From: a virus
Lineage: Duplodnaviria > Heunggongvirae > Uroviricota > Caudoviricetes
IMG/VR virus record: IMGVR_UViG_2600254985_000001
DNA: 19,497 nucleotides
Reading direction: 5' to 3' (one strand)
The notes beneath the pieces were generated by a model. The model was not told the DNA's origin, did not search any database, and worked only from the letters and a program-made list of their open reading frames with translations. The position numbers were made by a program, and so were the translations under genes. Of the stretch, positions 1 through 19,311 are shown piece after piece; within the stretch, counting starts at the first letter, position 1, and each line of letters starts with the position of its first letter.

Positions 1-147
1 CTTACACTTAAAAAAATTGATAGCGTAGGAGATAACGGAGAAGCGTTTGACTTACTAGATGAGATATTGTCTAGTTTAGAACCAAGCAAAGAATATCTAT
101 ATAAGCAACGATTGAAGCGTAAAATGCAAAGGGAGGCAATGAGATAA
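1..147 (+). CDS. 3' end of an early-region hypothetical protein, 5'-truncated by the window edge
   Basis: Frame 1 is open from base 1 to a TAA at 145..147 and translates to a protein-like sequence (LTLKKIDSVGDNGEAFDLLDEILSSLEPSKEYLYKQRLKRKMQREAMR). It lies on the strand opposite the late genes, as expected for convergent early genes. Confidence 0.35.
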   Translation, partial: LTLKKIDSVGDNGEAFDLLDEILSSLEPSKEYLYKQRLKRKMQREAMR

Positions 148-319
148 TATTACACAAGTACACAAGGAAGATTAATAGTTCAAAATATCCACGGTCAACA
201 GCTAGAAAGATCGCTAATGACTTGAACAAGAATGACCCTTTTAATAATTATCTAGTGAGCCTTGAGCTTGGCTCTAAAAGGTATATTATTGAAAAATTTG
301 AAATTAGAGGTATGAATAG

Positions 320-601
320 ATGAAACGTTTTTACGTAGAGGAAGACGACAATGGCAAAGAGATTAAGCGAAAACTTACAACTTTTGCTAATGATGATTTA
401 ACACAGCTTTCAGATGATGAGCTAGAAACATTATATTATGAATCATCTGCTCAATTTTTAGCTAAAGCAATGCACTTTATGAAGATTGAGAACGAACTAT
501 TTTCAAGAAAGAATGTAATTGTAAGTGATGAAATTCTAATAAATGTCGGCAATAATATTATTGAAGCTATCAATCAGGTAAGCAAAGGAGAAATCACTTG
601 A
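320..601 (+). CDS. hypothetical early-region protein (93 aa)
   Basis: ORF in the supplied track with an ATG at 320 preceded by AGAGGT about 9 nt upstream. Acidic, helical-looking sequence with no recognisable motif. Confidence 0.55.
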   Translation: MKRFYVEEDDNGKEIKRKLTTFANDDLTQLSDDELETLYYESSAQFLAKAMHFMKIENELFSRKNVIVSDEILINVGNNIIEAINQVSKGEIT

Positions 602-747
602 AGAACAACGAATTAGTGAAAAAAATCAACGAAGAGTTGAAGCTGAAAAACAAGCCTAAGTTGACAGAATCGCAAGAGAACACGATGAGGAAACTTAACG
701 ATCTAATAATAGAGGAAGTCAACATGTTAGTGAAAAAGATGAAGTGA
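598..747 (+). CDS. small lysine-rich hypothetical protein (49 aa, TTG start), absent from the ORF track
   Basis: TTG at 598..600 overlaps the TGA stop (599..601) of the upstream ORF and sits 7 nt after AAAGGAG (584..590). The frame stays open to a TGA at 745..747 and translates to MKNNELVKKINEELKLKNKPKLTESQENTMRKLNDLIIEEVNMLVKKMK. Confidence 0.3.
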   Translation: MKNNELVKKINEELKLKNKPKLTESQENTMRKLNDLIIEEVNMLVKKMK

Positions 748-752
748 TACCG

Positions 753-792
753 AACAAAGAAAGCCCCACAATTAAGTGAGGGCCTTTTTCGT
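753..792. terminator. bidirectional rho-independent terminator between convergent early genes and the endolysin
   Basis: Imperfect hairpin GCCCCAC (763..769) / loop AATTAA / GTGAGGGC (776..783), flanked by an A-rich run upstream (AACAAAGAAA) and CTTTTTC downstream, so a U-tract follows the stem on either transcript. It lies 3 nt beyond the endolysin stop (794..796). Confidence 0.5.
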
Positions 793-793
793 A

Positions 794-1555
794 TTATTTT
801 TTAGCAATGATTGGTTTGTCGATTCCGTTAGCTTGCATGAAACGAATATCAATAGGCGAACCTTTCCAATCGAAGTTTTTAAGGTCTTTGCCAGTTGTTT
901 CTTTATAAGTTTTACGAACAATTGCCAATTGGTCTGGGTGTGATAGAGCGATAACTTTTTCGCCATTAAAGTAGTAAGTTGTTTTATCGCCATTTGTATA
1001 TGTAAATTTCATTAAATCGTCGTCCTCTAATTCTGTATTTGTTTGTGTATTGTTTACTGCGACTGTGCCACTAGTTTGTCCTGTAAGGCGCTTGTTTAGT
1101 TCTGTGATAAAGTATGAGCGACAACTCTCTAACGTGCCTCCGTGTACTTCTACTGAACGTCTAGGGCATGAAGTTGCTGAAAGTTCTTGATGTAGTTTAA
1201 CAGTATCACGATTAGGAGTTAACCCCCATTGTTTCATGTACTTAGCCACGTCATCTAGTACCGCTTGCTCATTTCTCAAGAACTGGTTTAAATCGCCCTC
1301 TGATTGGCATACTTCCCAGCTTGCATAGTTAGCATTACCGTACGAGTTGGCACAATGCCATGCCATATTAGAGAAATCAGAAGCTTGTAATCTTCCGTCA
1401 GAAGCAATGTAGACATGAGCAAAGCCATTTTCAGGGTTATGATTAGGTAACCAGTTGTTGTAGAAGCCAGCGTTAGCACCATTCGAACCAGCGTCATTGT
1501 GAATTACAACCCCAGTAGGGTTATAACCACGTACACCAGCATTAGTTATATTCAT
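794..1555 (-). CDS. endolysin, putative N-acetylmuramoyl-L-alanine amidase (amidase_2/PGRP-like N-terminus)
   Basis: 253-aa ORF immediately downstream of the holin, with an ATGA start/stop overlap. The N-terminal half has His/Cys-containing segments typical of zinc amidases (VVIHNDAGS, AHVYI, MAWHCANSY). It is the last gene of the late operon. Confidence 0.75.
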   Translation of the reverse strand: MNITNAGVRGYNPTGVVIHNDAGSNGANAGFYNNWLPNHNPENGFAHVYIASDGRLQASDFSNMAWHCANSYGNANYASWEVCQSEGDLNQFLRNEQAVLDDVAKYMKQWGLTPNRDTVKLHQELSATSCPRRSVEVHGGTLESCRSYFITELNKRLTGQTSGTVAVNNTQTNTELEDDDLMKFTYTNGDKTTYYFNGEKVIALSHPDQLAIVRKTYKETTGKDLKNFDWKGSPIDIRFMQANGIDKPIIAKK

Positions 1556-1905
1556 TCTTTTTTATCCTCCGTTTGTTCTTCTTCTACTTCTGGAACACTT
1601 ACACCGTTCTTTTTCATAAGTTTAACCAAACCGTCGAACATAGGACTGATTTTTGCGACCAAATAAATAAATTGCCCTACAAAGTACAATAAACCTACGT
1701 CAATCACAGTTTTGGCAATATCAGAAGTTGAGGGAGTTTGTGTAAAGAAGAAGACCGCATATAAAACCCACAGGGATAAAATAACCGTTAAGTCAATCAC
1801 AAGTCTACGTTTGAAAGGTGGGTTCATTGCTTCTCTATCTTTTACCCATGTAGCGAAAAGAATCGCTAAAATTAAGATAGTTATTAAAATCATTCTAGTT
1901 ACCAT
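1552..1905 (-). CDS. holin
   Basis: 117 aa with three predicted transmembrane segments (ILITILILAILFATWV, LVIDLTVILSLWVLYAVFFF, VIDVGLLYFVGQFIYLVA) and a highly charged C-terminus (EVEEEQTEDKKE). Sits directly upstream of and overlapping the endolysin. Confidence 0.75.
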   Translation of the reverse strand: MVTRMILITILILAILFATWVKDREAMNPPFKRRLVIDLTVILSLWVLYAVFFFTQTPSTSDIAKTVIDVGLLYFVGQFIYLVAKISPMFDGLVKLMKKNGVSVPEVEEEQTEDKKE

Positions 1906-1926
1906 TTTGTTTCGCTTTCTATTTTG

Positions 1927-2886
1927 TTATTTAATGAAGTAACTTCCGTTACCACGTGTTGCAATAGGTGTTTTACCAATATCTGGTCCCCACCAAGTAA
2001 TACTACCGTTTGTGTCTATGTCAATATGGAAAGAAGTCTCATGTCCAGCAAAATGACCAACAATACTTTGAACAACAGCTGGACGAAATTCTTTATCTAC
2101 CCATGGTCCAGACATTTTAATGCCAGCTTTTGTAGTTGATACACTACCAAAGAGTCTAACAATTACTAAATCATCGTTCTTTTTAGTGAATTGCAACTGC
2201 ATACCATTTCCAGTTTGAATTGTCAACATTTGAGTTGGAACATCGATTGTACCTCTAAGTGATATATCATTTGCATTGATTGAACCTTTAAGCGATAAAT
2301 TATTTGCGTTGATTGAACCTTTAAGTGATAAATTATTTGCATTGATTGAATCTTTAAGTGATAAATCGTTTGCGTTGATTGAACCTTTAAGCGATAAATT
2401 ATTTGCATTGATTGAATCTTTAAGTGATAAATCGTTTGCAGAAATACTATCTAAAGTACTAGCCTGAAGAATTGGCTTAATGCTTGTTACACCAGTTCCT
2501 GAAGTCGTAACAACATCAAAACAAACTTTCAAAACGCCAGAACCGTTGTTTATATCAACACCGTTACTATTATTTGATGTTTCTGCTGATAAACTTACAG
2601 GGTTTGCTGTTTGCGTTAAGTCAATATTTGCATGGATATAATTAACTGCATTACCTTTTAAGGCAACAGTTTCATTCAATAGTTCAAAATACCTCCCGCC
2701 TGCAACGATTGATGTGTTAACATATTGCACGTTAAGGGCTGTATTTAATGGACTTTTCCAATCTTTGCGCCTAATTGTTCTATAGCCCATTCCAGTCAAC
2801 ATCATGTATAGTTTTCCGTCATTATTAGAACCGACTGGAAACTCTGTACCATTTGGACTGAAAAACGTGAAGTTTTTAATTGTCAT
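1927..2886 (-). CDS. rbp: receptor-binding protein (RBP, 936/p2-type) with a repeat-expanded neck
   Basis: 319-aa ORF in the RBP position (last structural gene before the holin). Its N-terminus ([11 protein letters not shown]...) and C-terminal region are consistent with my recollection of p2-type RBP shoulder and head domains. AAAGG ribosome-binding site 7 nt upstream of the ATG at 2884..2886. Confidence 0.8.
2239..2451 (-). repeat. in-frame 33-bp tandem repeats (about 6 units) encoding 11-aa units [11 protein letters not shown] / [11 protein letters not shown] within the RBP
   Basis: Directly visible: near-identical 33-bp units repeated head-to-tail. The translated RBP reads ...[68 protein letters not shown]... 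(residues about 146..216). Confidence 0.9.
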
Positions 2887-3184
2887 TTTTAACCTTTCTT
2901 GAAATTATTTCCGCTTTATCTAAAACTGGGTTATCAGTAATTGATAGCTCTAACAATCTAAATTTTCTACCGCCATAAGGATAACCACCAATTGATACAA
3001 ATTGTCCGACTTCATACAAGAGCGTGGTCTCGATTCTAAGCGTGTTTTTACTATTATAGTACACTTTACCTTGCAATAGTTCTAAGTGGTCTTTACGAAG
3101 CTCTCTATGCCCTTTAAAGCTATCTATTCTATATTTGTCGCCATAAGTAGCTACATACTCATATAACATTCGGTTTGTCTCCAC
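2876..3184 (-). CDS. hypothetical structural-module protein between Tal and RBP (102 aa)
   Basis: ORF in the conserved position between Tal and RBP. Overlaps the Tal 3' end and the RBP 5' end, a compact arrangement typical of a phage late operon. No recognisable motif. Confidence 0.5.
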
Positions 3185-4286
3185 TTCCTACAAAAATAAG
3201 TCTATCATTGAACTCTGTTTTAACTCTATCTGCTATATATCCTGAATATAGCTTGCCCTCGTACCAAATATCTACTAAGTCATTAACATACAAAGGAAAA
3301 AGTTCATTTTGATTAAAGAATAACCTTGTGACGATTGTAGAGGGAGAAATTTCAACCTTAATAGTAGACAACTCAGGAGGGTTTCCGTGGTCATCTCTAT
3401 CATAAAACAATGTTTTGGTTGTCCTTACATCTGGCAAGTCTGTTCCGTCTCCATGATAAGTGCTATAATCAATGACATCTCCGTTATTTTTTGCTGTGTA
3501 CATTTTAGGAGGGTCTGTGTAGTCATCTGTTGCTTTATTTTTAACGAACACAACAGCAAAATTATAAGCTGAACGTTCTACTATTGTTTCCGTGTCCATT
3601 GTCACACTTTGCTTAATATCTACCCTTGTCGTGATTCTTTTTCTATTCCAGTTTCTTGAAGCAAAGTTAATGAATAACAAGTTTCTAGGGTCTGTTTCAG
3701 ATGGAGCGTGTTGAATGGTTGTAGTTGGTTGAAATTGAACCTTGGAAAATATCCTTTTTGCTACATCATGAGCTGATGAAGTTTCCGCTTTACGATTAAT
3801 CGTAGCCTTTCCAGCAAAGATACTTGAATCAAAGAAATAACCATAACTCATTAAATTATTTTTATTAGGGTCAATTAAATAATTAATTATACCAGAGTTT
3901 GTCTTTTTGGCTATTGCGTTTGGAACGTCAAGACTTTCAATCATTGCCCAAAAGTAGTTTTTTAACGTAGCTTTATTACTTTCGTCTACATCGGTCACAA
4001 GGTAAACCATATCTAAATTCAGTTTTTTCCTCTTACCTAGAGCTTCTTCAATTGGAACAACTTCAGGAAAAAGTACTTGAACAATATCGCCAACTTCTAC
4101 CGAAACGGTCAATGTAGCTGATGAAGTGTAAAGATAGCCTGTTTCCCACAGTTCGTAATCAATAACTTGACATCTTGCCTTTGGTATTGGAAGGCCTCTT
4201 TTTTCTTTTTTACCATTAGGCATTCTGAAATCAGATATATTGTAATAGTTAGGGTTAAAGTTATCATAAACGTTAGCTTCTAACAT
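3159..4286 (-). CDS. tal: tail-associated protein Tal (short form, no C-terminal lysin extension)
   Basis: 375-aa ORF directly downstream of Dit, with its start overlapping the Dit stop. The size matches my recollection of the short Tal of p2-like 936 phages. No peptidase or glycosidase motif noticed. Confidence 0.65.
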   Translation of the reverse strand: MLEANVYDNFNPNYYNISDFRMPNGKKEKRGLPIPKARCQVIDYELWETGYLYTSSATLTVSVEVGDIVQVLFPEVVPIEEALGKRKKLNLDMVYLVTDVDESNKATLKNYFWAMIESLDVPNAIAKKTNSGIINYLIDPNKNNLMSYGYFFDSSIFAGKATINRKAETSSAHDVAKRIFSKVQFQPTTTIQHAPSETDPRNLLFINFASRNWNRKRITTRVDIKQSVTMDTETIVERSAYNFAVVFVKNKATDDYTDPPKMYTAKNNGDVIDYSTYHGDGTDLPDVRTTKTLFYDRDDHGNPPELSTIKVEISPSTIVTRLFFNQNELFPLYVNDLVDIWYEGKLYSGYIADRVKTEFNDRLIFVGSGDKPNVI

Positions 4287-5182
4287 TAAATAAAGTCCGC
4301 CTTTCTCTTGATTTTAAGCTCTGCCTTACTTAAATTAACTAGCTCCATTTGACCTTTTTCAATTATACGAGTTCTGTATCGCTCAAAGTTCATTACAGGG
4401 AATAAGTTTAGTACAGTTGTACCCTTCCAGCCTTGATAAAATTCGTCATTTACATCTGTATTAATTAAAATATAATCTTGTACCTGTTCCGTCTTAAACA
4501 CAATTGCAGTATATTCGTTTCCAACATCGTCTAAAAATCTAACTCCAGCAGGTGTTTTAGGAAGTTTCGGATATAATACCCCCATAAAACTAAATATTTT
4601 TTCTTTTATTTCCCAACGGCTTAAACGGCCTATGTCACTTTCCCCATAATAAGTGTAAGAGGTTCCTTCGATATACTTATAGTCTCCTGGTGCGGTTCCT
4701 CCATAAATTTTAGACTTACCAGAAAGAACTTTACCATTTTCAATCATGTCAAAAGTTAAATTTTCGTAAGTATACCACTTTGTAACTACATCGAAAGTTA
4801 TCTTTTCGCTGAAAGTTCCGTTCTTACCGTAACCCTCTGTCTTTGTGACATCTGCTAAAGCTAAATCAGCATACACCTGAAAAATTTCTGTTTGATATTC
4901 AAGTGTAACGAATTTTTTGCTAAGAATATCGTTTACGAAGTCTTTCATTAATTGATAATTTTCTTCTAAACTTTCTCCAAACGTTTCTAGCTTAAACTCT
5001 ATTTGTGGTTGAGTAATTGAGCGTTTTCCCATTATTCCAATACCATTACTTTGCCAGATGTTATTAGTTGATTGTAACCCTAAATTAGAGGGCTGGTAAA
5101 ATCTAACTTTTCCATTTGTAACGTCCCAAACTTTGTCGTCTGTTCCGTCTAAGTTAGTATGTATTTTATACTGTCTTACCAT
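4286..5182 (-). CDS. dit: distal tail protein Dit
   Basis: 298-aa ORF immediately downstream of the tape measure gene (start overlaps the TMP stop). Canonical Dit position and size for 936-group phages, with no obvious inserted domain. Confidence 0.65.
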   Translation of the reverse strand: MVRQYKIHTNLDGTDDKVWDVTNGKVRFYQPSNLGLQSTNNIWQSNGIGIMGKRSITQPQIEFKLETFGESLEENYQLMKDFVNDILSKKFVTLEYQTEIFQVYADLALADVTKTEGYGKNGTFSEKITFDVVTKWYTYENLTFDMIENGKVLSGKSKIYGGTAPGDYKYIEGTSYTYYGESDIGRLSRWEIKEKIFSFMGVLYPKLPKTPAGVRFLDDVGNEYTAIVFKTEQVQDYILINTDVNDEFYQGWKGTTVLNLFPVMNFERYRTRIIEKGQMELVNLSKAELKIKRKADFI

Positions 5183-8172
5183 TAAGCCCTCCCTAGTTCA
5201 AATTCTCGTCTGATTGCACGCGCTAAGTTAGAAACATCTTGACCAGCACCGCCTTGCACGTTAAATGTGTTATATGTTCTATTGTCGCTTGATACACTGT
5301 TAGTGCTTAAACCGTAACCGCTAGAAGATAAATTGACATCTGTTAAGCCTACTACCATAGAACCTTTGAATAGTCCGCCAACTTTACTTGCAACCCAATC
5401 AATTGAACCTTTGATATTTTTAATTGTATCTGTTACACCTCCAAGAACGCTGTCTATTGTATCTTTGACTCCTCCAAATATTCCGCTAAAGAAGTCGCCA
5501 ATGCCCTTAAATACTCCTGTTATTGCATCCCAAGCATTTGAAGCAAATTTACCAAAAGCCTCGAATACTCCGCTAACTATATCTTTAGCACCGTCAAACG
5601 CTCCCTTAAAGAAATCAGCTACTCCGTTAAATACACCTGAAATTGCATCCCAAGCTTTTGAAGCAAAGCCACCAAGAGCGCTAAACACTCCGCTAACGAC
5701 ACTGCGAACAGAATTGAATATGCCACTAAAGAAGCCTGAAACTGCATTCCATATTGATGAAACTACTCCCCAAGCGCTAGAAGCAAAACTTCCGATTGCA
5801 CTAAATACTGTTGAAACTACTGATTTTACAGCGTTAAATATACCGCCAAAGAAGCCTGAAACTGCATTCCATACGCCAACCAGTATATCCCAAGCTGAAC
5901 CAGCAAAGCTACCTATGGCGCTAAATACTGTTGAAACTATTGAACTAACTGCGTTAAATATTACACCAAAGAAACCTGATATGCCGTTCCACGCTCCGAT
6001 AACTAATTGGTAAGCACCGCGAATAATAGCCAATATAAGTTGGAATGCTAAATTAATTACTGATCCAACTAACCCAAATATAGATTGAAAGAAACTAATT
6101 AAAGGTTGGAAAGTTGTAACAAACCAGTTATAAGCACCTGTCACTAAAGAAGCAATGGTTGTAAATACAGTTGTAACAACATTTACTATTCCGTCCCATA
6201 GCCCTGTGAAGAACCCTGTAACTCCTGCCCATGCTGTTTGAATACCAGTAACAACAGTTGTCCATAAAGTAGTAAAGAATGTTGTTATTCCGTTCCAAAT
6301 ATTTTGAACACCTTGTACAATTCCACTGAACCAATCGACTAAGCCTTGCCAAATGCCTTTAGCTCCGTCAACTGCTCCGTTCCATATATCAGCAAACCAT
6401 TGACCAATACCGCTAAAGAATGAAACTATTCCGTCCCATGCACTCTTTAAGAAGTCTACGAAACTACCCCAAACCTTTTTACCTGTTTCGGTTTGAGTGA
6501 AGAAGTAAACTAAACCAGCAACAATGGCTGCGATTGCTATGCCAAGAGCCACGAATGGATTCATAGCCATTACAGCATTGAAAGCTCCTTGTATAATTGT
6601 ACCAGCTTCAACAACCTTATTATATATCTCGACAGCCTTAATGATTCCATCAATAACTTTCAAAGCAACGAATACACTAGCCAAAGCAGCTAAAGCTACT
6701 TTTAAAGTATCTATTGCGCTTTTACTTTCACTAATTTTTTGCAGAAAATCAGCTATTTTTTTCGTGACTTCTGAAAATTTACCAGCAAATACAGCTATGC
6801 TTTTTGCTACGTTATCTATACTTGTTGCGTTTTTTGTTGTTTCTGTATTTATTCCAATAAATGAATTTATGACATTCCCTATAATAGAAACTATGGAACC
6901 AAATGCACTTTTTATGCTATCCCAAGCCTCTAAAAATGCTAAAGTGGCTGCATTTTCTTGCAGTTTTTGAAACAAGTCTTGGAAATACTTAACTACATTT
7001 GTTACAGCTTTACCAGCACTTTCGCCCCAGTCAGACATCTGGTCTATTAAGCCACTAATGATAGGTGTTAAAGCGTTCAAAGTAGGCACTAAAGCAATTG
7101 ACATTGTTTCGTTGAAGCTGTCCCACGCGTCCCCAATAGTTTTGATTCCACCGCCCGAACCTTTAGCCATTTTTTCCATAGCCTTGTTGAGCATATCCAT
7201 CGAAACAGCGCCTTTTGAAACAGCGTCATTAAAAGAACCGTATTGCTGTAATGAGGGGTTCATTTTCATAACAGTGTCTTTTAAAGAAGAACCAAGAGCT
7301 GTGTTGTTATCGGTTAATTGTCCAATATTTTCAGCCGTAACTTTACCAGCTGCCGACATTTGACCGTAAGACTGAACTACACCTTTAAGGTTTTCGCCAG
7401 TACCACCAAATGCTTGGTTAGCTTTTACTAATGCTTCTGTTTTACTGACCGCTTTTTTAGCGCTATCGCCTAAACCAATGAACGTTGTTGAAAGTTTTAA
7501 AGTATCTTCGGTATTTGCATTTGTATCTTTAGCAAGATTCTGCATAGATTTGCTTACATAGTCAAAGTCTTTTCCATTGCCTTTGAACTTCATTGTATTT
7601 TGCAATGAAATCATGGCTTTTTGAGTATCCATTGCGTTAGATACCCAGTCTTTTAAGCCGTTACCGACAGCACTAACAGCACTTGCACCGATTTGTCTGA
7701 ATGCACCAACAGCAATCTCTCTAAGACCGCTAAAGCGTGACTTCATGCCCTCAATTCCGCTATTAACGCCTTTAGTATCCATTTTAGCGTCAATGTTCCA
7801 AGAGCCTGAACTAATAGCACCCTCGACTTGCTTAATTTCGCCCTCTAGCCTATTAGCTTGTGTTTCTACTGTACCTAAATCTCTAGTAAGTTGTAGCCAT
7901 TTCTTTTGACCTGCTGACGTCCCTTTGTCAACCGTAGAAAGTTCTTCTTTTAATTTTGTTGCTTTGTCACGTGATAAGCCCAACTGCGTTTGTAAGTTCT
8001 TCTGCAATTGCGCCATTTTCCCGGTATTTGTGGGGTCAAGTTTTAGAGCTTCACGTAAGTTTTTAGCTTCTCCTCTAAGCCCTGACATTGCGGTATTAAC
8101 GCCTTTAAGTGAGTTCTCGAATTTCGTTGTATTACCGTATATCTCGACCTCAAATGTTGCATTACTTGCCAT
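5182..8172 (-). CDS. tmp: tail tape measure protein (TMP)
   Basis: 996-aa ORF. N-terminal coiled-coil-like region, central hydrophobic segments, and a C-terminal series of about 40-aa Gly/Phe/Trp-rich tandem repeats (GIFNAV.SVVSTVFSAIGSFA.SAW...). Its position between the chaperone genes and Dit is diagnostic. Confidence 0.9.
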   Translation of the reverse strand: MASNATFEVEIYGNTTKFENSLKGVNTAMSGLRGEAKNLREALKLDPTNTGKMAQLQKNLQTQLGLSRDKATKLKEELSTVDKGTSAGQKKWLQLTRDLGTVETQANRLEGEIKQVEGAISSGSWNIDAKMDTKGVNSGIEGMKSRFSGLREIAVGAFRQIGASAVSAVGNGLKDWVSNAMDTQKAMISLQNTMKFKGNGKDFDYVSKSMQNLAKDTNANTEDTLKLSTTFIGLGDSAKKAVSKTEALVKANQAFGGTGENLKGVVQSYGQMSAAGKVTAENIGQLTDNNTALGSSLKDTVMKMNPSLQQYGSFNDAVSKGAVSMDMLNKAMEKMAKGSGGGIKTIGDAWDSFNETMSIALVPTLNALTPIISGLIDQMSDWGESAGKAVTNVVKYFQDLFQKLQENAATLAFLEAWDSIKSAFGSIVSIIGNVINSFIGINTETTKNATSIDNVAKSIAVFAGKFSEVTKKIADFLQKISESKSAIDTLKVALAALASVFVALKVIDGIIKAVEIYNKVVEAGTIIQGAFNAVMAMNPFVALGIAIAAIVAGLVYFFTQTETGKKVWGSFVDFLKSAWDGIVSFFSGIGQWFADIWNGAVDGAKGIWQGLVDWFSGIVQGVQNIWNGITTFFTTLWTTVVTGIQTAWAGVTGFFTGLWDGIVNVVTTVFTTIASLVTGAYNWFVTTFQPLISFFQSIFGLVGSVINLAFQLILAIIRGAYQLVIGAWNGISGFFGVIFNAVSSIVSTVFSAIGSFAGSAWDILVGVWNAVSGFFGGIFNAVKSVVSTVFSAIGSFASSAWGVVSSIWNAVSGFFSGIFNSVRSVVSGVFSALGGFASKAWDAISGVFNGVADFFKGAFDGAKDIVSGVFEAFGKFASNAWDAITGVFKGIGDFFSGIFGGVKDTIDSVLGGVTDTIKNIKGSIDWVASKVGGLFKGSMVVGLTDVNLSSSGYGLSTNSVSSDNRTYNTFNVQGGAGQDVSNLARAIRREFELGRA

Positions 8173-8684
8173 TACATACCCTTTCTTTTACGCCTTTTCT
8201 CTTTTTCTTTTTCCTCTTTCTTTTTCTCTGCAATAAGTTCGATTATTTTATAAACAAGTTCTAGTTCCATTTCCATGAACTGTGTTATATCAATTTCATT
8301 ATTGCCCAAAACAGTCAAAAGTTCTAAAGTTTTATTTTCCCTTACAGTATCTTTCTTTTTCTTAATCAATGAACTAGAAGAAAAGAAGACTGTATCGTCT
8401 TCCGTTTCCTCTTTTTCTTTAATAAAAACAGTTTTACAGAAGATATTGATTAACTCGTTAGTTGTAGGAAGCTCTGTTTTATCATCTAAGGCGTTTTGCA
8501 TTCCTCCGTTACAATCTACCCAAAGTATCAATAACTTGTCTGTAAAGCTCTCCATTTGCTCTGTAAAGTCATCAGGAATATATCCAGCGACAAAAGAATT
8601 TTGTAGGTCTGCAAAGTCTTTTAAATCTGTAATAAAGTCTGAACCAGTTAGTTCTAAGTATCTAATTGCATGTTTTAAAATCAT
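8172..8684 (-). CDS. tail assembly chaperone-like protein (170 aa, acidic with a basic C-terminal tail)
   Basis: ORF immediately upstream of the TMP, with its stop overlapping the TMP start. GAAAGGA ribosome-binding site upstream of its ATG. Position corresponds to the gpG/gpT chaperone slot. Confidence 0.5.
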   Translation of the reverse strand: MILKHAIRYLELTGSDFITDLKDFADLQNSFVAGYIPDDFTEQMESFTDKLLILWVDCNGGMQNALDDKTELPTTNELINIFCKTVFIKEKEETEDDTVFFSSSSLIKKKKDTVRENKTLELLTVLGNNEIDITQFMEMELELVYKIIELIAEKKKEEKEKEKRRKRKGM

Positions 8685-8703
8685 TTACAGTCCTTTCAGC
8701 TCA

Positions 8704-8979
8704 TTAAATTTCTTTCTGCCATAATTCGACAAGTTCTTTAAGCCCTTTACCGTCAGTATCGAACTCGAAGCTAGAACGGAAGTCAGAGAAGTCACTTTTA
8801 GCTTTTACAATGTTATCTTGAAAAAGAGCCAAGTATAGACCATATTGAACGAACTCCATTAGGTCAGTAATTTCTCCGTCTTCTTTTTTAAGTTCTGTAT
8901 CCATTGCCTTTTGTTGTTGGAAAAGGTCTTTACCTGTAATCATTTTAAATTTACGTGCTGTACTCAATTGTTTTGCCAT
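8704..8979 (-). CDS. tail assembly chaperone-like or small tail protein (91 aa)
   Basis: ORF between the major tail protein gene and the downstream chaperone ORF. Assigned on synteny only. Confidence 0.45.
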   Translation of the reverse strand: MAKQLSTARKFKMITGKDLFQQQKAMDTELKKEDGEITDLMEFVQYGLYLALFQDNIVKAKSDFSDFRSSFEFDTDGKGLKELVELWQKEI

Positions 8980-9016
8980 TTTATTTTATATTCCTTTACT
9001 TAATCTATTTTTAGTC

Positions 9017-9922
9017 TTATGAATGGTCAGTTACTGAAACTCCTGCGGTAACATCTTTATAACCCTCAGCGGAGAACTTTACGTTATAGGCACCTGGAGC
9101 AAGTTGTCCGTTTGTTGCTACTTTTCCATTTGCGTCATTAATCACTGATGTTACTTTTACAGTTCCACCATTAGAATCTTTCAAAGTGGCAGGCACTACG
9201 ATTCTTCCGTCATTATGACCCTTTGTAGCAGTAGTCACATTAGGAATAACAGGAGCTACGAGTGTAATTCCACCAGCTAGAACTGTATCAGGTTGCATAA
9301 TGAATAAACCACTTTCCATTTTCTTGACGAAATCTTTTGCTTGTTCTCCCCAAATTTCGTACTCAATAGCAGGGACTTTTTTACCGCCATTCAAATAAAT
9401 ATCTGACTCAGTCGCTTGTACTGCCAAAGTCCATTGGATAGGGTCTACACCGTCAACTGAATCTGTTTCTGATTCTTTTGTTGCTTCTGCTGTTGGTCTC
9501 AAATTTGGATAAACGACTACGCGATAACCGTCAACAAATTCCCCTGTAACTTTATCACGCTTACGCCCTTTAATAAGGTATTGAACACATTTCGTTTTCC
9601 AATTACCAGTAGGAGACCAACCCAAGCCATTTTCTGTTCTTTGTTGACCTAAAATGTCTTCTTTAAGCGATTGGTCTGTTTGAATGAATACCATTTCGCC
9701 TTGAAGTAAGGTAGCACCTTTTTTCACTCCATGGTCTGGCACGTCATCAGCTGGATAGCTGTTAGTCTCCGCTTGGTCTTCCATTGCGCCAACTGATACT
9801 AAACCAGTTACAATTTTATGGTTAGTAAACTCTGGTTTTCCGTTACTTCCCTTGGCCATATCAGCTACGATTAGAGCTTCATTACCAAAGAAAATCTCAC
9901 GTGAGTTATAATCTAATTTCAT
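9017..9922 (-). CDS. mtp: major tail protein (MTP) with C-terminal Ig-like domain
   Basis: 301-aa ORF upstream of the chaperone/TMP genes. The C-terminal approximately 90 residues (…VATNGQLAPGAYNVKFSAEGYKDVTAGVSVTDHS) resemble a bacterial Ig-like decoration domain. AAAGGA ribosome-binding site upstream. Confidence 0.75.
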   Translation of the reverse strand: MKLDYNSREIFFGNEALIVADMAKGSNGKPEFTNHKIVTGLVSVGAMEDQAETNSYPADDVPDHGVKKGATLLQGEMVFIQTDQSLKEDILGQQRTENGLGWSPTGNWKTKCVQYLIKGRKRDKVTGEFVDGYRVVVYPNLRPTAEATKESETDSVDGVDPIQWTLAVQATESDIYLNGGKKVPAIEYEIWGEQAKDFVKKMESGLFIMQPDTVLAGGITLVAPVIPNVTTATKGHNDGRIVVPATLKDSNGGTVKVTSVINDANGKVATNGQLAPGAYNVKFSAEGYKDVTAGVSVTDHS

Positions 9923-10029
9923 TTTTTATTTTCCTTTTTATTTTTTTATGCAGTACGTTTCCAATAATATATTGTCGTTGAACCAATTACTGCTGAACCG
10001 ATATTTTCCCATGCAATCCTAAATATATA

Positions 10030-12399
10030 TTAATCAATATCAATATTCCACATGCAAACAGGATATATTAAATCTTGTAACTGTGACATAATTTGAGCCA
10101 TTGAGTATTTGTTAGGGTGTATCGATCCATAAGTAACGCCATCTGAATTTAAAGCTGACCATGTTTTTATAGACATATCATTATGTGCGTAAGTTCTCGC
10201 TGTAAAATCAGCAAACGCACACTCGTATTTACGACATAATTCTTGTATTATAGGTCTAACATTTTGAAACCACTCTACATAGGTTCTCCCAGTATTATAA
10301 ACTGTTCCAACTGTTGGCAAAGTGATGATAATAGCCAAATCTTTTACGGTTTTATTATAAGCTGGTCTACCATTAACACTTGTATTTCCTCTTATTCTTT
10401 TCAATCCTTCTTCCATATTTGTTTTAAATAAGTTTAATCTTTGTTCTAGTGTTAACCCAGCGAACTTCGTATGGTTTTTATCAGCGTCATTCATTCCCCA
10501 TCCAATTATTAAAAGGTCTGGGTTATGTTCCATCGATGTTTGTAAAAAACCATTAGGGTATTTTTGTAAATAGTAAGGCAAAGCATAAGTTGGGTTTCCT
10601 ACCCATTCATTCGTATTTCTACCACCAAAACCATTGTTTAGTATTGATAATTTTTTTAAATCATAATTCCCTGCCTTCATTATTTTTTTAAGTGCATAAT
10701 CTTTCATGCCAAAAAAAGTATCTTGAACCGATGATAGTGGAGCGTAACCAGCAGTTATACTATCTCCGTCTAATGCTATTGATATATTATTTACACCGTC
10801 ATAAATTTTCTCATACCAATGCTCTAAATATTCATGTCCCCAAATAGGTGTAACTGGATATTTGTAATAATCAAACGCAGTAGTAGTTGTTGTAACAGTG
10901 TCATTACTTACTGACGGGGTATAATTTACCATTTTTTGAAAACTATCTAAATTACTCGGTACGTTGTTAGTGGATGAAGTGTAATTTAAAACTTGCATGT
11001 CTGCTAATATCATGTCAATATCAGATTGTGTAAGAGGTTTTAATCTAACATACCCTTGAATAGCATATATTCCATTTGCGTTTATATTTTTTTCGTTTGT
11101 AACAGTAACACTCTCACATTTCAAAGTATTGCTATTAAATTTAACTAATTCTAATCTTAAATATTTTGAGTTAGTATATTTTAAAATAGAACCCTTATTT
11201 AATGTCATTTTTTGAGTTGAAAAGTATGTCTTGTTAATATCTTTTGAAGCACTACCAACACTATATTTTCCATATGTTACAGTCAAGTCAATATCAACTA
11301 ACATTCTATCTTTGAGAAATTTTAATTCATCTTCAATAATGTCTATTTTGTCTGTAGTTGAAATATATGATGTAAAAATAAAATTTGATTTTGTCGTTGC
11401 AACATCTTCTCCCATTTTTCCAAAACCAGTTTTGGCAGTTTGAAAAGCAATTTTGCCAATATGCTTTATACTCATTCCATTTTTTACTTCGCCATAGCGT
11501 AAAAAAGCACCATTTTTATCATATAAAAAATATTTATAAAGTGTATAATTAGTTGGATTTTTAATATTTAATTCAACAGTACCGCTAATATCAAACTTTA
11601 CAGTTCTATTCATAGACTCATTAATAACTGTTTCGCCATTATTATCATTATATTTACCAACTTCCCAAGCAACATTTAAAGTTGTTGGTGTTAAACTGTT
11701 CGCTTGTGCTTCGGTAGCCTTTGCCATTGCATTTTTGGCTTCACTTTCAGCTTGTTTTGCTGTTTCTTGAGCAGTTGTTACATTTTGATTTGTGATTAAT
11801 AAATCTGATTGTTCAGCTTTTGTTGAAATTGCAATCCCTTGCCTGCTGACATCAGCTTGTAAGTTGTTCAAGTCTGTTTGATTGGCTTTAAGCTCAATAT
11901 TGCTCTTGTTTGATTCAGTTTGAGCATGTAAGTCATTCAACTCACTACGCATTACTTGTGGCATATTTTCCAATAATAATTTTGTAAAATCATCAATCTT
12001 ATTATTTACTTCTTGAGCTAAATCTGTAACCGTAGAATTATCTGATATAAACGTAAGGTTCTTGCTGACGATAACCTGCTCTTTATCTTCATTGAGAAGT
12101 ATTAAGTTCGCTTCAATAACTCCAGTTTCTGTCATTTCGGTAGGAATTACTAAAATAAACTCTCCCTTAGTTAAGTTTTCAGGAGGAATCATAACAAAAC
12201 CTGAATTACTGCTATTAGTATATTGATATGTAAGTTTTAATGAATGGCCAGTCAAATCAATTTCGCCTCCATTATCAAGTATTTTAATTGACAATGTTCT
12301 AGCGTTGACGTCGCCTTGCATTATTTGAATTGGTTGTGGGAAGCCTTTATTGACCGTATCCCATACAATCGCTCTATTTTTAAAATTATCTAAACTCAT
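10030..12399 (-). CDS. large accessory virion protein (789 aa): N-terminal domain, coiled-coil stalk, central beta-rich region, C-terminal SGNH/GDSL hydrolase domain; candidate neck passage structure (collar-whisker) protein
   Basis: Lies between the head-tail joining genes and mtp. Residues about 140..240 are heptad-like and Ala/Gln/Glu-rich. The C-terminal region has SGNH blocks: ALDGDSITAGY (Ser547 codon at 10759..10761), NNGFGG, GWGMNDA, and DGVTYGSIHP. Confidence 0.7.
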   Translation of the reverse strand: MSLDNFKNRAIVWDTVNKGFPQPIQIMQGDVNARTLSIKILDNGGEIDLTGHSLKLTYQYTNSSNSGFVMIPPENLTKGEFILVIPTEMTETGVIEANLILLNEDKEQVIVSKNLTFISDNSTVTDLAQEVNNKIDDFTKLLLENMPQVMRSELNDLHAQTESNKSNIELKANQTDLNNLQADVSRQGIAISTKAEQSDLLITNQNVTTAQETAKQAESEAKNAMAKATEAQANSLTPTTLNVAWEVGKYNDNNGETVINESMNRTVKFDISGTVELNIKNPTNYTLYKYFLYDKNGAFLRYGEVKNGMSIKHIGKIAFQTAKTGFGKMGEDVATTKSNFIFTSYISTTDKIDIIEDELKFLKDRMLVDIDLTVTYGKYSVGSASKDINKTYFSTQKMTLNKGSILKYTNSKYLRLELVKFNSNTLKCESVTVTNEKNINANGIYAIQGYVRLKPLTQSDIDMILADMQVLNYTSSTNNVPSNLDSFQKMVNYTPSVSNDTVTTTTTAFDYYKYPVTPIWGHEYLEHWYEKIYDGVNNISIALDGDSITAGYAPLSSVQDTFFGMKDYALKKIMKAGNYDLKKLSILNNGFGGRNTNEWVGNPTYALPYYLQKYPNGFLQTSMEHNPDLLIIGWGMNDADKNHTKFAGLTLEQRLNLFKTNMEEGLKRIRGNTSVNGRPAYNKTVKDLAIIITLPTVGTVYNTGRTYVEWFQNVRPIIQELCRKYECAFADFTARTYAHNDMSIKTWSALNSDGVTYGSIHPNKYSMAQIMSQLQDLIYPVCMWNIDID

Positions 12400-12455
12400 T
12401 AAAAAATACCATTATTGTTAATTTCAATCAAATGTAATTAAACCACTTTCTACTT

Positions 12456-12842
12456 TTATAATTTCATTGAATTAGCATAAATAGCGCCTTTTTTCAATGT
12501 TGTTTTAACGTCTTGCATACCTTTTTTATTTCTTAAAAAGTACATACCATGATAACCGCTAGTATAATTAGCTCTAGTACCTGCGTCAATAACTATTTTA
12601 TCGCCTTTTTTAACTTGTTTTAAGTTACTTGATAATTGACCAGTATTTTGGTATCTAGCATAAGTATAGGTGTGACCATGACTTCTAATTAATCTAGTTC
12701 TTCGGCTTGCACTATTCGCTTTAGCTTTAAATTCTGCTTCAAACCAGTCGCCCATGCGTTCTGTTACTTTAGTTTGCATTTCTTTAGCTATGCTTGCTGT
12801 ATTAAGTAAATTCATTGCCATGCTTGACCACCTGCACCACAA
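12456..12842 (-). CDS. head-tail joining or tail completion protein (128 aa)
   Basis: Fourth small ORF after the capsid gene. Assigned by synteny with HK97-like and 936-type head-tail connector gene sets. Overlaps its upstream neighbour. Confidence 0.5.
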   Translation of the reverse strand: MWCRWSSMAMNLLNTASIAKEMQTKVTERMGDWFEAEFKAKANSASRRTRLIRSHGHTYTYARYQNTGQLSSNLKQVKKGDKIVIDAGTRANYTSGYHGMYFLRNKKGMQDVKTTLKKGAIYANSMKL

Positions 12843-13150
12843 GGCAAATAAACAGTACCAGTATAATTGTACAAATGGCTATTCTCTGACCAGTTCGTCA
12901 TATTCCAACCGTTTTGTAAAACATTTCCGACTAGTTCTACAAGTTCATCGTCAACATCTTTAACAGATAAAACAACTTGATAATAGTAACCCATGACAAA
13001 GCTCGTATTATCCATTTTAATGACCTTTGAGTCACTAAGTGATAAATATACCGTCTTGTCTTCTATCGTGTCCTTAACACCTAAAATAACGTCATTTAGA
13101 GGCATTGTAAGCAAATTGTTGTACCAATCTATATAAGAATCAAATTCCAT
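12812..13150 (-). CDS. head-tail joining protein (112 aa)
   Basis: Small ORF in the head-tail connector cluster, overlapping both neighbours. Assigned by synteny. Confidence 0.5.
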   Translation of the reverse strand: MEFDSYIDWYNNLLTMPLNDVILGVKDTIEDKTVYLSLSDSKVIKMDNTSFVMGYYYQVVLSVKDVDDELVELVGNVLQNGWNMTNWSENSHLYNYTGTVYLPCGAGGQAWQ

Positions 13151-13454
13151 TGCTTACTACCCCCTCTAAAATCATCTTGTTATTCTTAGGGTTTCTTTCC
13201 CATGTTGTACGCTTGAAAGTTTCGCCTTTTTCGTCCAAGAAATAGTTGAAAATCAAGTCTTCCATTTCTCCGATTCCGTTAAGCTCGTATCTTACGTTTT
13301 TACCTAGCCCAATCATAGAAAACTCATCAAGCCTTGTCTGACTAATTCTCTGTTTAACTGCTGGTAAAACGATAGGCTTTATAACATTAGCTTCTGCACC
13401 GTTCTTCTTCTTAACAGTCGTTTCTACCTGTAATGTAACTTGTGAGAATATCAT
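13140..13454 (-). CDS. head-tail adaptor or head closure protein (104 aa)
   Basis: Small ORF in the head-tail connector cluster, with its start overlapping the upstream stop. Assigned by synteny. Confidence 0.5.
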   Translation of the reverse strand: MIFSQVTLQVETTVKKKNGAEANVIKPIVLPAVKQRISQTRLDEFSMIGLGKNVRYELNGIGEMEDLIFNYFLDEKGETFKRTTWERNPKNNKMILEGVVSNGI

Positions 13455-13717
13455 TAAATACCTCCATAATACATTAACTCTTGCAAAGAAGCCAAACGTT
13501 TCATTTCAGCATTTCGCCATTGTTCTGCTGGTTCATCAACAATATTAAGCCGACAATAACAAGAAATAAAGTCTTTAACTAATACGCTTGTTTCGTCAGC
13601 TTTAATACCATTTTTTTCTAGCAATTTAATAGCTATTGAACGGAATAAGATAAGTTTACTATCATAAGCTGTTACTAAAATCGGAATACCACAATAGACC
13701 TTAATATAATCTATCAT
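13454..13717 (-). CDS. head-tail connector protein (87 aa)
   Basis: First small ORF downstream of the major capsid gene. Assigned by synteny. Confidence 0.5.
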   Translation of the reverse strand: MIDYIKVYCGIPILVTAYDSKLILFRSIAIKLLEKNGIKADETSVLVKDFISCYCRLNIVDEPAEQWRNAEMKRLASLQELMYYGGI

Positions 13718-13737
13718 TTACTTCCTCCATTTTATTC

Positions 13738-16565: not shown

Positions 16566-16577
16566 TTTTTCCCCTTT

Positions 16578-18474: not shown

Positions 18475-18485
18475 TCATTCCCTTT

Positions 18486-19237: not shown

Positions 19238-19311
19238 ATTATCCTTTCTTTTAAATGTGGTTATATCGTTTAAAGCCTATATTTTCGTTCCTGTGAGCGT
19301 TAAGTTAATTA

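What the first reader, a model, noticed from the sequence alone, without database searches (positions are those of the whole stretch)
2239..2451. Receptor-binding protein neck expanded by about six in-frame 33-bp tandem repeats
As I recall, p2-type RBPs are about 264 aa with a neck of roughly 22 residues; here the RBP is 319 aa, and the extra 55 aa equal exactly five 11-aa units ([11 protein letters not shown] / [11 protein letters not shown]). Near-identical DNA units suggest recent slippage or recombination. A longer neck would push the receptor-binding head further from the baseplate and could alter host range. The array is also a likely assembly-error or length-variation hotspot.
Basis: partly seen in the sequence, partly recalled or inferred. 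Interest (0 to 1): 0.6.

Follow-up and report, generated by a model that had tools for sequence, protein, structure and literature searches.

The report
Variable-length neck repeats in phage receptor protein
The host-recognition protein of this dairy (Lactococcus) phage has a stalk lengthened by six tandem 11-amino-acid repeats; this is real, but related phages carry one to seven copies, and the count in any one short-read assembly is unreliable.

Summary
ORF 1927..2886 (-) encodes a 319-aa p2-type Skunavirus receptor-binding protein (RBP). Six in-frame 33-bp units (2239..2436) insert exactly 55 aa into the neck relative to p2's 264-aa RBP. Shoulder, head and sugar-binding residues are conserved.

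It is not unusual. Public RBPs form a ladder of 264/275/286/297/308/319/330 aa, that is 1-7 units. All 54 phages from one Canadian cheese plant carry 3-6 units, and phage RM9 reached 319 aa by an independent two-unit duplication.

Copy number differs on otherwise identical sequence. The window differs from a 7-unit contig by one 33-bp deletion, and from a 3-unit contig by one 99-bp deletion, with no other change over about 2.16 kb.

The window is itself a phage contaminant contig in an "E. coli" assembly. Many sister contigs break exactly at branch points of the repeat. Six units may therefore be a true allele or a collapsed seven.

Best reading: a variable-number tandem repeat in which each unit encodes two rungs of the trimeric beta-helix neck, adding about 4-5 nm of reach (inferred). 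Any effect on host range is untested. This is an ordinary member of a known family with a well-populated length polymorphism, and of low-to-moderate interest.

The parts
1927..2886 (-). Receptor-binding protein (RBP) gene, 319 aa plus stop. It lies between a 97-aa structural protein/Tal/Dit upstream and holin/endolysin downstream.
   Evidence: ORF list and translation. All three Pfam lactophage RBP domains pass their cutoffs. The match to p2 RBP structures 1ZRU/2BSD has E 6e-140. Gene order matches annotated phage JG7.
2464..2886 (-). Shoulder domain (aa 1-141), which docks the RBP on the Dit.
   Evidence: PF20747 scores 283 bits over aa 2-139. It is 92% identical to the p2 shoulder.
2437..2463 (-). 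Proximal, degenerate neck segment (aa 142-150, ASTLDSISA). It is also present in p2 and is not part of the variable array.
   Evidence: It aligns to p2 residues 142-150. PF21564 (neck) covers aa 141-159 at 30 bits against a cutoff of 27. Its ...DSISA resembles the unit's ...DSINA.
2239..2436 (-). Six in-frame 33-bp / 11-aa tandem units (aa 151-216), in the order A B A B' B'' C. This is the variable-number array. p2 has only the last unit.
   Evidence: TRF and the unit table. The 55-aa gap relative to p2. The copy-number ladder in relatives.
2305..2436 (-). Two copies of a 66-bp two-unit block (units 1-2 at 2371..2436, units 3-4 at 2305..2370). They differ by one synonymous base, which is the footprint of a two-unit duplication.
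   Evidence: TRF finds a 66-bp period with 93% matches. The closest GenBank relatives (BM3, JG7) lack exactly 66 bp here. The longest exact internal repeat is 47 bp.
2236..2238 (-). Hinge proline codon (Pro217, equivalent to p2 Pro162) that ends the neck and turns the chain into the head.
   Evidence: Alignment to p2. The hinge-proline position moves in steps of 11 residues among homologues. The role of the proline is described in PMC3893620.
1930..2238 (-). Head (receptor-binding) domain, aa 217-319, of the group I (p2-like) type.
   Evidence: PF08931 scores 132 bits over aa 219-319. It is 74% identical to the p2 head. The p2 saccharide-site residues H232, D234, W244 and R256 are conserved at +55.

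Best explanation
The array is a variable-number tandem repeat inside the neck-coding part of a p2-type (group I) Skunavirus RBP gene.

**What each unit encodes.** Each 33-bp unit encodes 11 residues with the profile N-[D/N]-[I/L/M]-S-[L/V]-[K/R]-[G/D]-S-I-x-[V/A]. That is two short beta-segments of 5 and 6 residues, each with two inward-facing hydrophobic side chains. In the RBP trimer these segments stack as further rungs of the interlaced triple-stranded beta-helix (beta-prism) that joins shoulder and head.

**Geometry (inferred).** p2 has four rungs in 22 residues. This protein would have about 14 rungs in 77 residues. That would lengthen a rigid stalk from roughly 2 nm to roughly 6-7 nm, while the docking shoulder and the sugar-binding head stay unchanged.

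**How the number changes.** Units are gained and lost in frame, by replication slippage or by unequal recombination between near-identical units. The result is a population ladder of 1-7 units.
- Shown: the repeat anatomy, the insertion point, conservation of the flanking domains, the ladder, and repeated independent gains and losses.
- Inferred: the rung geometry and the ~4-5 nm extension.
- Speculative: that stalk length tunes adsorption or host range, for example access to cell-wall polysaccharide receptors under surface layers of differing thickness.
For: **Anatomy and insertion point.**

**Family membership.** All three Pfam RBP domains pass their cutoffs. The sugar-site residues are conserved and the head is 74% identical to p2.

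**Length ladder.** Public homologues have lengths 264/275/286/297/308/319 aa, and a cluster member has 330 aa. In the unique p2-type sequences retrieved, the hinge proline sits at 161+11n, with these counts:
- 264 aa: at least 94
- 275 aa: 5
- 286-288 aa: 27
- 297-299 aa: 19
- 308-310 aa: 5
- 319 aa: 4
- 330 aa: 1

**Isolated phages.** All 54 Canadian cheese-plant phages have 3-6 units, judged from the spans. Arrays were read directly for BM3, JG7, RH13, RM9, RMP1 and RMP6.

**Independent duplications.**
- The window has A B A B'.
- RM9 has E F E F, built from different unit sequences.
- RMP1 equals RMP6 plus one identical unit.

**Speed of change.** Five different backgrounds with identical shoulder and head carry different unit numbers: {3,5,6,7}, {5,6}, {3,4}, {3,5} and {3,4}.

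**Single-event relations.** The window, a 7-unit contig and a 3-unit contig are related by single 33-bp and 99-bp deletions. The junctions lie in 35-bp and 32-bp exact repeats, with no other difference in about 2.16 kb.

**Unit profile.** Across 54 distinct unit peptides, positions 3, 5, 9 and 11 stay hydrophobic, while positions 6 and 10 vary.

**Literature.** The p2 neck (residues 142-163) is a rigid triple-stranded beta-helix with four strands per face. The 24-residue TP901-1 neck is four 6-residue segments (PMC3893620). A ~90-100 aa longer neck in Phi4.2 RBP1 goes with a baseplate 6-7 nm longer (PMC6315561 and PMC6669499). That agrees in scale with ~0.07-0.09 nm per residue.

**Model.** The AF2 monomer model shows no helix in the neck, and pLDDT is 62-84 over residues 160-220.
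Against: - No trimer model or coordinates could be obtained. The monomer AF2 model is poor overall (mean pLDDT 54.5) and cannot show inter-chain strands. The rung geometry therefore rests on homology to p2 and TP901-1.
- The exact copy number in the window may be an assembly product (see the first rival).
- Part of the ladder comes from short-read metagenome assemblies, which can collapse repeats.
- No host-range or adsorption data could be linked to unit number. The paper describing the Canadian phages (PMC10231144) was not available.
Confidence: 0.85

Rival explanations
1. The repeat is real, but the number six is an assembly artefact. On this reading the source phage carries seven units (or a mixture of lengths), and the short-read assembler collapsed one near-identical unit.
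For: **Origin of the window.** It is contig JRBB01000014.1 of an 'E. coli' draft assembly, so it is a contaminant, probably at low coverage.

**A 7-unit sister.** A 7-unit version in Staphylococcus caeli 82B (330 aa) is identical to the window over 2157 bases, apart from one 33-bp unit whose junction lies in a 35-bp exact repeat. Any k-mer of 35 or less could skip that loop.

**Frequency.** The 330-aa form is the commoner one. Its UniRef entry spans 14 taxa and it sits on 6 contigs, against 2 contigs for the 319-aa form.

**Shorter forms.** The 3-unit sister contig is a single-deletion derivative of the window array and of the 7-unit array at DNA level. The 5-unit form (P0012) is known only as protein. 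Its unit order is consistent with a single 66-bp deletion from the 7-unit array.

**Contig breaks.** At least seven independent contig or protein ends fall inside or at the edge of the 200-bp array, and they sit exactly at repeat branch points. These come from Paenibacillus kribbensis (two scaffolds), Bradyrhizobium sp. C9, S. pseudoxylosus, S. caeli and Ensifer.
Against: - The same 6-unit array occurs in a Bacillus thuringiensis-labelled contig that differs at 4 flanking positions, so it is a different genotype.
- The identical 319-aa protein is recorded under two separate GenBank protein accessions (KGA88466.1 and MBG9762824.1), on two contigs.
- The longest exact repeat in the array is only 47 bp, so assemblers using larger k with reads of 100 bp or more should resolve it.
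- Isolated, completely sequenced phages independently show 3, 4, 5 and 6 units.
Confidence: 0.3
2. The length polymorphism is real but selectively near-neutral. The beta-helix tolerates any whole number of units, slippage generates them, and stalk length has no meaningful effect on host range or adsorption.
For: - Very different unit numbers (3, 5, 6, 7) sit on identical shoulder and head backgrounds, and several lengths coexist in one cheese plant.
- By C3 symmetry, each added rung turns the chains by about 120 degrees. A whole number of rungs therefore leaves the head trimer's orientation equivalent (inference from the beta-prism description in PMC3893620).
- The head's sugar-binding residues are unchanged.
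Against: - Expansion is not spread evenly. In the sample, p2/sk1-type heads have only one unit. The window-type and RMP1-type heads carry 3-7 units, and all 54 Canadian phages have at least 3. That pattern suggests lineage- or host-linked maintenance of long necks.
- Two other lineages lengthened the neck independently, with a 16-aa unit (280 and 312 aa) and a 5-aa half unit (269 aa).
- Neck codons were reported under positive selection in Australian 936 phages (PMC3318435).
Confidence: 0.35
3. The repeats form a flexible linker or an 11-residue (hendecad) coiled coil rather than additional rigid beta-helix rungs.
For: An 11-residue period is also typical of hendecad coiled coils. No trimer structure of a multi-unit neck was available, and the monomer model cannot show inter-chain strands.
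Against: - The last unit is homologous to p2 residues 151-161, which are solved as beta-prism (PMC3893620).
- The units are rich in N, S, G and D, and their hydrophobic residues alternate at i and i+2 (positions 3/5 and 9/11). That is a beta pattern, not a helical one.
- The AF2 model predicts no helix anywhere in residues 141-217.
Confidence: 0.05
4. The array acts at the DNA or RNA level (a protein-binding repeat, recombination signal or regulatory element), and its coding capacity is incidental.
For: Short ORFs in other frames and on the other strand overlap it (2223..2408 - and 2276..2467 +), as expected in any stop-free repeat.
Against: - The array always changes by multiples of 33 bp, which keeps the RBP frame.
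- Differences among the three [11 protein letters not shown] copies are all synonymous. Units 1 and 3 are identical.
- Across 54 distinct unit peptides the core positions are conserved and the surface positions vary, which is the signature of selection on the protein.
- It lies in the middle of a gene whose product is a known virion protein.
Confidence: 0.02

Closest known systems
Lactococcal phage p2 RBP (ORF18; PDB 1ZRU, 2BSD; Skunavirus RBP group I)
   Same: It has the same three-module architecture and the same gene position. The shoulder is 92% identical and the head 74% identical. The saccharide-site residues H232, D234, W244 and R256 are conserved, as is the hinge proline.
   Different: p2 has one canonical 11-aa unit (NDMTVSGSIDV) after the degenerate proximal segment, giving a 22-residue neck. 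Here there are six units, giving a 77-residue neck.
RBPs of the Canadian cheese-plant Skunavirus collection (OP451909-OP451962; e.g. BM3, JG7, RH13, RMP1, RM9)
   Same: These are the closest genomes, at about 98% nt identity over the whole window. They share the RBP type and the 33-bp unit family, with necks of 3-6 units. RM9's RBP is also 319 aa.
   Different: The unit order differs. The window has A B A B' B'' C. BM3 and JG7 have four units and lack the 66-bp block. RM9 reached six units through a separate duplication of different units.
Long-neck lactococcal RBPs: Phi4.2 RBP1, P335 phages LC3/Q33, and Skunavirus group VIIB (AE3-RBP3)
   Same: These have an elongated neck between a conserved shoulder and a head. 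For Phi4.2 the longer neck goes with a visibly longer baseplate (PMC6315561, PMC6669499 and PMC12282274).
   Different: Those necks are about 90-100 aa or more longer. They belong to other head groups, or to a second rbp gene, and they are not described as near-identical tandem units. Here there is a single rbp gene, and the extension is a recent-looking tandem repeat array.
TP901-1 / Tuc2009 RBP (BppL) neck
   Same: It is a triple-stranded beta-prism built from short, regularly repeating segments and ending in a proline that redirects the chain (PMC3893620). The head is homologous (E 1e-9).
   Different: It has a six-residue motif in a fixed four segments, with a helical-bundle stem in place of the shoulder domain. 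No copy-number ladder has been reported for it.
Repeat-mediated length variation in other phage receptor-binding or fibre proteins, e.g. collagen-like repeats flanking the variable region of the Streptococcus thermophilus phage host-specificity protein (own knowledge: Duplessis and Moineau 2001)
   Same: In-frame tandem repeats in an adhesion protein serve as recombination or slippage substrates and generate length and sequence variants.
   Different: The repeat chemistry differs (Gly-X-Y collagen-like repeats rather than beta-helix rungs), and so does the protein family. The comparison rests on memory and was not tested here.

Membership tests
Skunavirus (936-type) RBP, p2-like group I | N-terminal shoulder domain (Pfam PF20747) | tested here: met
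   283.4 bits over aa 2-139 against a cutoff of 26.7. 92% identical to p2 residues 1-141.
Skunavirus (936-type) RBP, p2-like group I | p2-type neck domain (Pfam PF21564) | tested here: met
   30.0 bits against a cutoff of 27, over aa 141-159. The score is only marginally above the cutoff because the 21-position model spans the repeat boundary.
Skunavirus (936-type) RBP, p2-like group I | C-terminal head domain (PF08931) with at least 50% identity to group I heads (criterion of PMC12282274) | tested here: met
   131.9 bits over aa 219-319. 74% identical to the p2 head. The group definition is quoted.
Skunavirus (936-type) RBP, p2-like group I | Conserved residues of the saccharide-binding crevice (p2 His232, Asp234, Trp244, Arg256) | tested here: met
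   H287, D289, W299 and R311 are present at the +55 positions.
Skunavirus (936-type) RBP, p2-like group I | Gene position: after Dit, Tal and a small structural gene, and before holin and endolysin | tested here: met
   Called genes with Pfam Dit and baseplate domains. Gene-for-gene correspondence with annotated phage JG7.
Skunavirus (936-type) RBP, p2-like group I | Homotrimer that binds host cell-wall polysaccharide | not testable with these tools
   This needs protein expression and binding assays, or a multimer model.
Triple-stranded beta-helix (beta-prism) neck repeats | Short segments of 5-6 residues with alternating inward-facing hydrophobic residues, separated by polar or Gly turns | tested here: met
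   Over 54 distinct unit peptides, positions 3, 5, 9 and 11 are I/L/M, L/V, I and V/A. Position 7 is G or D, and positions 1-2 are N and D/N.
Triple-stranded beta-helix (beta-prism) neck repeats | Interlaced three-chain beta structure along the three-fold axis | tested here: inconclusive
   Only a monomer AF2 model was possible. It has mean pLDDT 54.5 and no helix in the neck, with neck pLDDT of 62-84, but no strands can be assigned without partner chains.
Variable-number tandem repeat (slippage / unequal-recombination locus) | Head-to-tail, near-identical, in-frame DNA units | tested here: met
   TRF score 295 with no indels. Units are 31-33/33 identical among the A and B types.
Variable-number tandem repeat (slippage / unequal-recombination locus) | Copy number differs among otherwise identical or near-identical sequences | tested here: met
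   Arrays of 3, 6 and 7 units occur on flanks with no differences. Five identical protein backgrounds carry different unit numbers. Caveat: some of these sequences are short-read assemblies.
Variable-number tandem repeat (slippage / unequal-recombination locus) | Measured copy-number change within a propagated clonal population | not testable with these tools
   This needs read data or passage experiments.
Dual-RBP / very-long-neck systems (Phi4.2 type) | Two adjacent rbp genes, one with a neck about 90-100 aa longer and a novel head | tested here: not met
   There is a single rbp gene between the 97-aa structural gene and holin. The extension is 55 aa and the head is p2-like.

The most novel reading that the evidence does not exclude
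The neck array may behave as a contingency locus in a strictly lytic phage. On this reading, copy number flips (3, 5, 6, 7 units) on otherwise identical genomes much faster than point substitutions accumulate. Dairy Skunavirus populations would then hold standing variation in RBP reach (about 1 nm per unit), which selection could use to track changes in the thickness or chain length of host cell-wall polysaccharide or exopolysaccharide. This would be a length-based axis of host adaptation, separate from changes in head sequence.
Probability: 0.2. Interest if true: 0.55.

Novelty: new member of a known kind. Interest (0 to 1): 0.3.

Why it matters
**Dairy phage biology.** RBP typing schemes classify heads only. 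This work shows a second, fast-changing variable: neck length in steps of 11 aa, from 1 to 7 units. If it affects adsorption, it could confound predictions of host from RBP group. It is also easy to test with an isogenic series.

**Sequence databases.**
- The array breaks or collapses short-read assemblies, so RBP lengths taken from metagenomes or draft genomes should not be trusted without spanning reads.
- The window itself shows that lactococcal phage contigs sit, mislabelled, in assemblies of many unrelated bacteria.

None of this changes the current understanding of how these RBPs work.

Tried and rejected
**Structure.**
- The AlphaFold2 monomer model with a 30-sequence alignment was poor. 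Mean pLDDT was 54.5 and the shoulder was below 40. A monomer cannot display the inter-chain beta-helix, so I did not use it for geometry or run a fold search.

**Literature.**
- Five full-text searches for a description of the 11-aa/33-bp neck repeat found only general statements. These say the neck is a rigid beta-prism, and that long necks occur in Phi4.2 RBP1, group VIIB and LC3/Q33. None found the ladder.
- A search for accession OP451914 found nothing.
- The paper most likely to discuss these phages (Jolicoeur et al. 2023, PMC10231144) is not held.
- The supplement of PMC12282274 does not list the Canadian phages.
- A search for reports of Lactococcus phage contamination in genome assemblies gave nothing relevant.

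**Retrieval.**
The 7-unit DNA was obtained from the genome-contig scan instead.

**Readings considered and rejected.**
- A DNA-level regulatory repeat, because frame is preserved and selection acts at the protein level.
- A coiled coil, because of composition, homology to a solved beta-prism, and no predicted helix.
- A dual-RBP or Phi4.2-type system, because there is a single rbp gene.
Full report
**What the window is.** The 19.5-kb window is the late (structural and lysis) half of a lactococcal Skunavirus (936-type) genome, read on the reverse strand. It is about 98% identical over its full length to phages JG7, AF6, BM12 and others from a Canadian cheese plant. Its genes correspond one-to-one with the annotated JG7 genes: terminase, portal, capsid, neck passage structure, major tail protein, tape measure, Dit, Tal, a 97-aa structural protein, RBP, holin and endolysin. 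The record itself is contig JRBB01000014.1 of a draft assembly labelled Escherichia coli, so it is a contaminant contig.

**The observation.** Tandem Repeats Finder reports a 33-bp period at 2241..2440 (6.1 copies, 86% matches, no indels, score 295). It also reports a 66-bp higher-order period (3.0 copies, 93% matches). The array lies in ORF 1927..2886 on the minus strand, which is 319 aa. In frame, aa 151-216 (window 2436..2239) read as follows:
- A: [11 protein letters not shown]
- B: [11 protein letters not shown]
- A: [11 protein letters not shown]
- B': [11 protein letters not shown]
- B'': [11 protein letters not shown]
- C: [11 protein letters not shown]

The two A units are identical at all 33 bases. 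The three B units differ only by one or two synonymous bases.

Against solved structures, residues 1-155 align to p2 RBP 1-155 and residues 203-319 to p2 148-264 (E 6e-140). The extra 55 residues, exactly five units, therefore sit inside the neck. p2 keeps only the last unit (NDMTVSGSIDV, residues 151-161), preceded by a degenerate segment (TSTLDSISV) that this protein also has.

**What the protein is.**
- All three Pfam lactophage RBP domains pass their curated cutoffs: shoulder PF20747 at 283 bits, neck PF21564 at 30 bits against 27, and head PF08931 at 132 bits.
- The shoulder is 92% identical to p2 and the head 74% identical.
- The four residues of the p2 saccharide-binding crevice (His232, Asp234, Trp244, Arg256) are present at the corresponding positions.
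- By the criterion of PMC12282274, which requires at least 50% head identity, this is a group I RBP.
- There is only one rbp gene, so this is not the dual-RBP arrangement of Phi4.2.

**The repeat number is a population polymorphism.** Homologues from public genomes and metagenomes fall on a ladder of 264, 275, 286, 297, 308 and 319 aa. The window's own 90% cluster also contains a 330-aa member. Among the unique p2-type sequences retrieved, the hinge proline sits at 161+11n:
- 264 aa: at least 94 sequences
- 275 aa: 5
- 286-288 aa: 27
- 297-299 aa: 19
- 308-310 aa: 5
- 319 aa: 4
- 330 aa: 1

The 54 isolated and fully sequenced Canadian cheese-plant phages all carry expanded necks. The gene spans give this distribution:

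| Span (bp) | Units | Phages |
|---|---|---|
| 861 | 3 | 2 |
| 894 or 900 | 4 | 42 |
| 933 | 5 | 9 |
| 960 | 6 | 1 (RM9) |

I read the arrays directly for six of them.
- BM3 and JG7 have four units and lack exactly the window's 66-bp block.
- RMP1 equals RMP6 plus one perfectly duplicated unit.
- RM9 reaches six units through a separate duplication (E F E F G C') of different unit sequences.

In my sample, expansion is confined to the window-type head cluster (1-7 units) and the RMP1-type head (3-5 units). The p2/sk1/jj50-type heads have a single unit. Other lineages lengthened the neck differently, with a 16-aa unit (280 and 312 aa) and a 5-aa half unit (269 aa).

**How fast it changes, and the assembly caveat.** Five different backgrounds with identical shoulder and head carry different unit numbers: {3,5,6,7}, {5,6}, {3,4}, {3,5} and {3,4}.

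At the DNA level, a contig in Staphylococcus caeli 82B (7 units) and one in Oceanibaculum pacificum (3 units) show no difference from the window in 1050 bp upstream and 909 bp downstream of the array. The three are related by single deletions:
- 7 to 6 units: 33 bp, with the junction in a 35-bp exact repeat.
- 6 to 3 units: 99 bp, with the junction in a 32-bp exact repeat.

This is what replication slippage or unequal recombination would produce. It is also what a de Bruijn assembler would produce by skipping a loop.

The second possibility is not idle. Contigs or partial proteins from Paenibacillus kribbensis (two scaffolds), Bradyrhizobium sp. C9, S. pseudoxylosus, S. caeli and Ensifer end inside the array, exactly at the points where the units diverge. 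The 330-aa form is also the more widely recorded one, with 14 taxa and 6 contigs.

Several facts count against a pure artefact:
- The same six-unit array occurs in a Bacillus thuringiensis-labelled contig with four flanking differences.
- The identical protein has two separate GenBank protein accessions on two contigs.
- The longest exact repeat in the array is 47 bp.
- Isolated phages independently show 3-6 units.

I put about 0.3 on the window's count being wrong, most likely a collapsed seven. That the array is a genuine multi-unit repeat I treat as essentially certain.

**Mechanism.** Published structures describe the p2 neck (residues 142-163) as a rigid, interlaced triple-stranded beta-helix (beta-prism) with four strands per face. 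The 24-residue TP901-1 neck is four six-residue segments ending in a proline that redirects the chain (PMC3893620).

The unit profile across 54 distinct unit peptides is N-[D/N]-[I/L/M]-S-[L/V]-[K/R]-[G/D]-S-I-x-[V/A]. Hydrophobic residues are conserved at positions 3, 5, 9 and 11, and positions 6 and 10 vary. That fits two beta-segments per unit, of 5 and 6 residues, each with two inward-facing side chains. The 269-aa class, which has one extra 5-residue half unit, fits the same picture.

I therefore infer that each unit adds two rungs. At the usual ~0.48 nm strand spacing that is about 1 nm per unit. Five extra units would add about 4.8 nm, taking the neck from ~1.9 nm to ~6.7 nm. An empirical cross-check comes from Phi4.2 RBP1, whose neck is ~90-100 aa longer and whose baseplate is 6-7 nm longer (PMC6315561 and PMC6669499). 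That gives ~0.07 nm per residue, or about 4 nm here.

The monomer AF2 model was too poor to test this. Mean pLDDT was 54.5, no helix was predicted in the neck, and strands cannot be assigned without partner chains.

Dit (298 aa) and Tal (375 aa) have the same lengths as their counterparts in the annotated relatives, 298 aa for the JG7 Dit and 375 aa for the jj50 Tal-position protein. Nothing else in the baseplate appears to be adjusted to the longer RBP. Whether the longer stalk changes adsorption or host range is not tested by anything I could run.

**Comparison with what is known, and novelty.**
- The protein is a member of the p2-type Skunavirus RBP family.
- It belongs to an already sequenced set of long-neck alleles, and the identical protein is in NCBI as WP_047658762.1, labelled 'hypothetical protein, MULTISPECIES [Bacteria]'.
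- Long necks as such are known (Phi4.2 RBP1, group VIIB, LC3/Q33), but those are different sequences and are not described as near-identical tandem units.
- I found no paper in the searchable library that describes the 11-aa ladder.
- One review states that the regular repeating motif of the TP901-1 neck is not seen in p2.
- The most relevant paper was not available, so I cannot claim the ladder is undescribed.

**Verdict.** This is a real and correctly interpreted feature, and an ordinary member of a known family carrying a well-populated length polymorphism. Its practical value is mainly as a caution about assembly and as an easily testable variable in phage-host matching. Interest is 0.3.

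Noticed in passing
whole window (1..19497); related loci L010-L016, L018, L019: The window is a lactococcal Skunavirus contig deposited inside an 'Escherichia coli' draft assembly (JRBB01000014.1, GCA_000755445.1). Near-identical phage contigs or proteins occur in assemblies labelled Staphylococcus caeli, S. pseudoxylosus, S. cohnii, Bacillus thuringiensis, Porphyromonas macacae, Oceanibaculum pacificum, Paenibacillus kribbensis, Bradyrhizobium sp. C9, Ensifer, Leptotrichia and Rhodococcus. NCBI lists the RBP as 'MULTISPECIES [Bacteria]'. This looks like a recurrent laboratory or medium-derived contaminant. Dairy-derived medium components are one guess, and the source was not investigated.
   Followed up: partly
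window 19395..19451: There are 5.7 tandem copies of a 10-bp unit (GAGATTTAGC, 95% matches). They lie between the start of the small terminase subunit gene and the contig end, which corresponds to the left (cos) end of related phage genomes. They may be terminase-binding repeats near cos. This was not tested.
   Followed up: no
window 5717..5979: A 120-bp period tandem repeat (2.2 copies, 77% matches) lies inside the tape measure protein gene at 5182..8172 (-). Internal repeats of this kind could vary tail length. They were not compared across relatives.
   Followed up: no
proteins P0059, P0067 and loci L027, L065 (other Skunavirus RBPs): Other RBP lineages lengthen the neck with different periods. 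One uses a 16-aa unit (NDMSLTGSINVPTISA-like), giving RBPs of 280 and 312 aa. Another uses one extra 5-aa half unit (NNISA), giving 268-269 aa.
   Followed up: partly
window 10030..12399 (-) versus L099 9976..12414: The neck passage structure gene is 789 aa in the window but 812 aa in the closest relative JG7, a 69-bp length difference. No tandem repeat was detected by TRF.
   Followed up: no
window 2223..2408 (-) and 2276..2467 (+): Two short ORFs of 61 and 63 aa overlap the array, one in another frame and one on the other strand. They are the expected by-product of a stop-free repeat and have no support as genes.
   Followed up: partly
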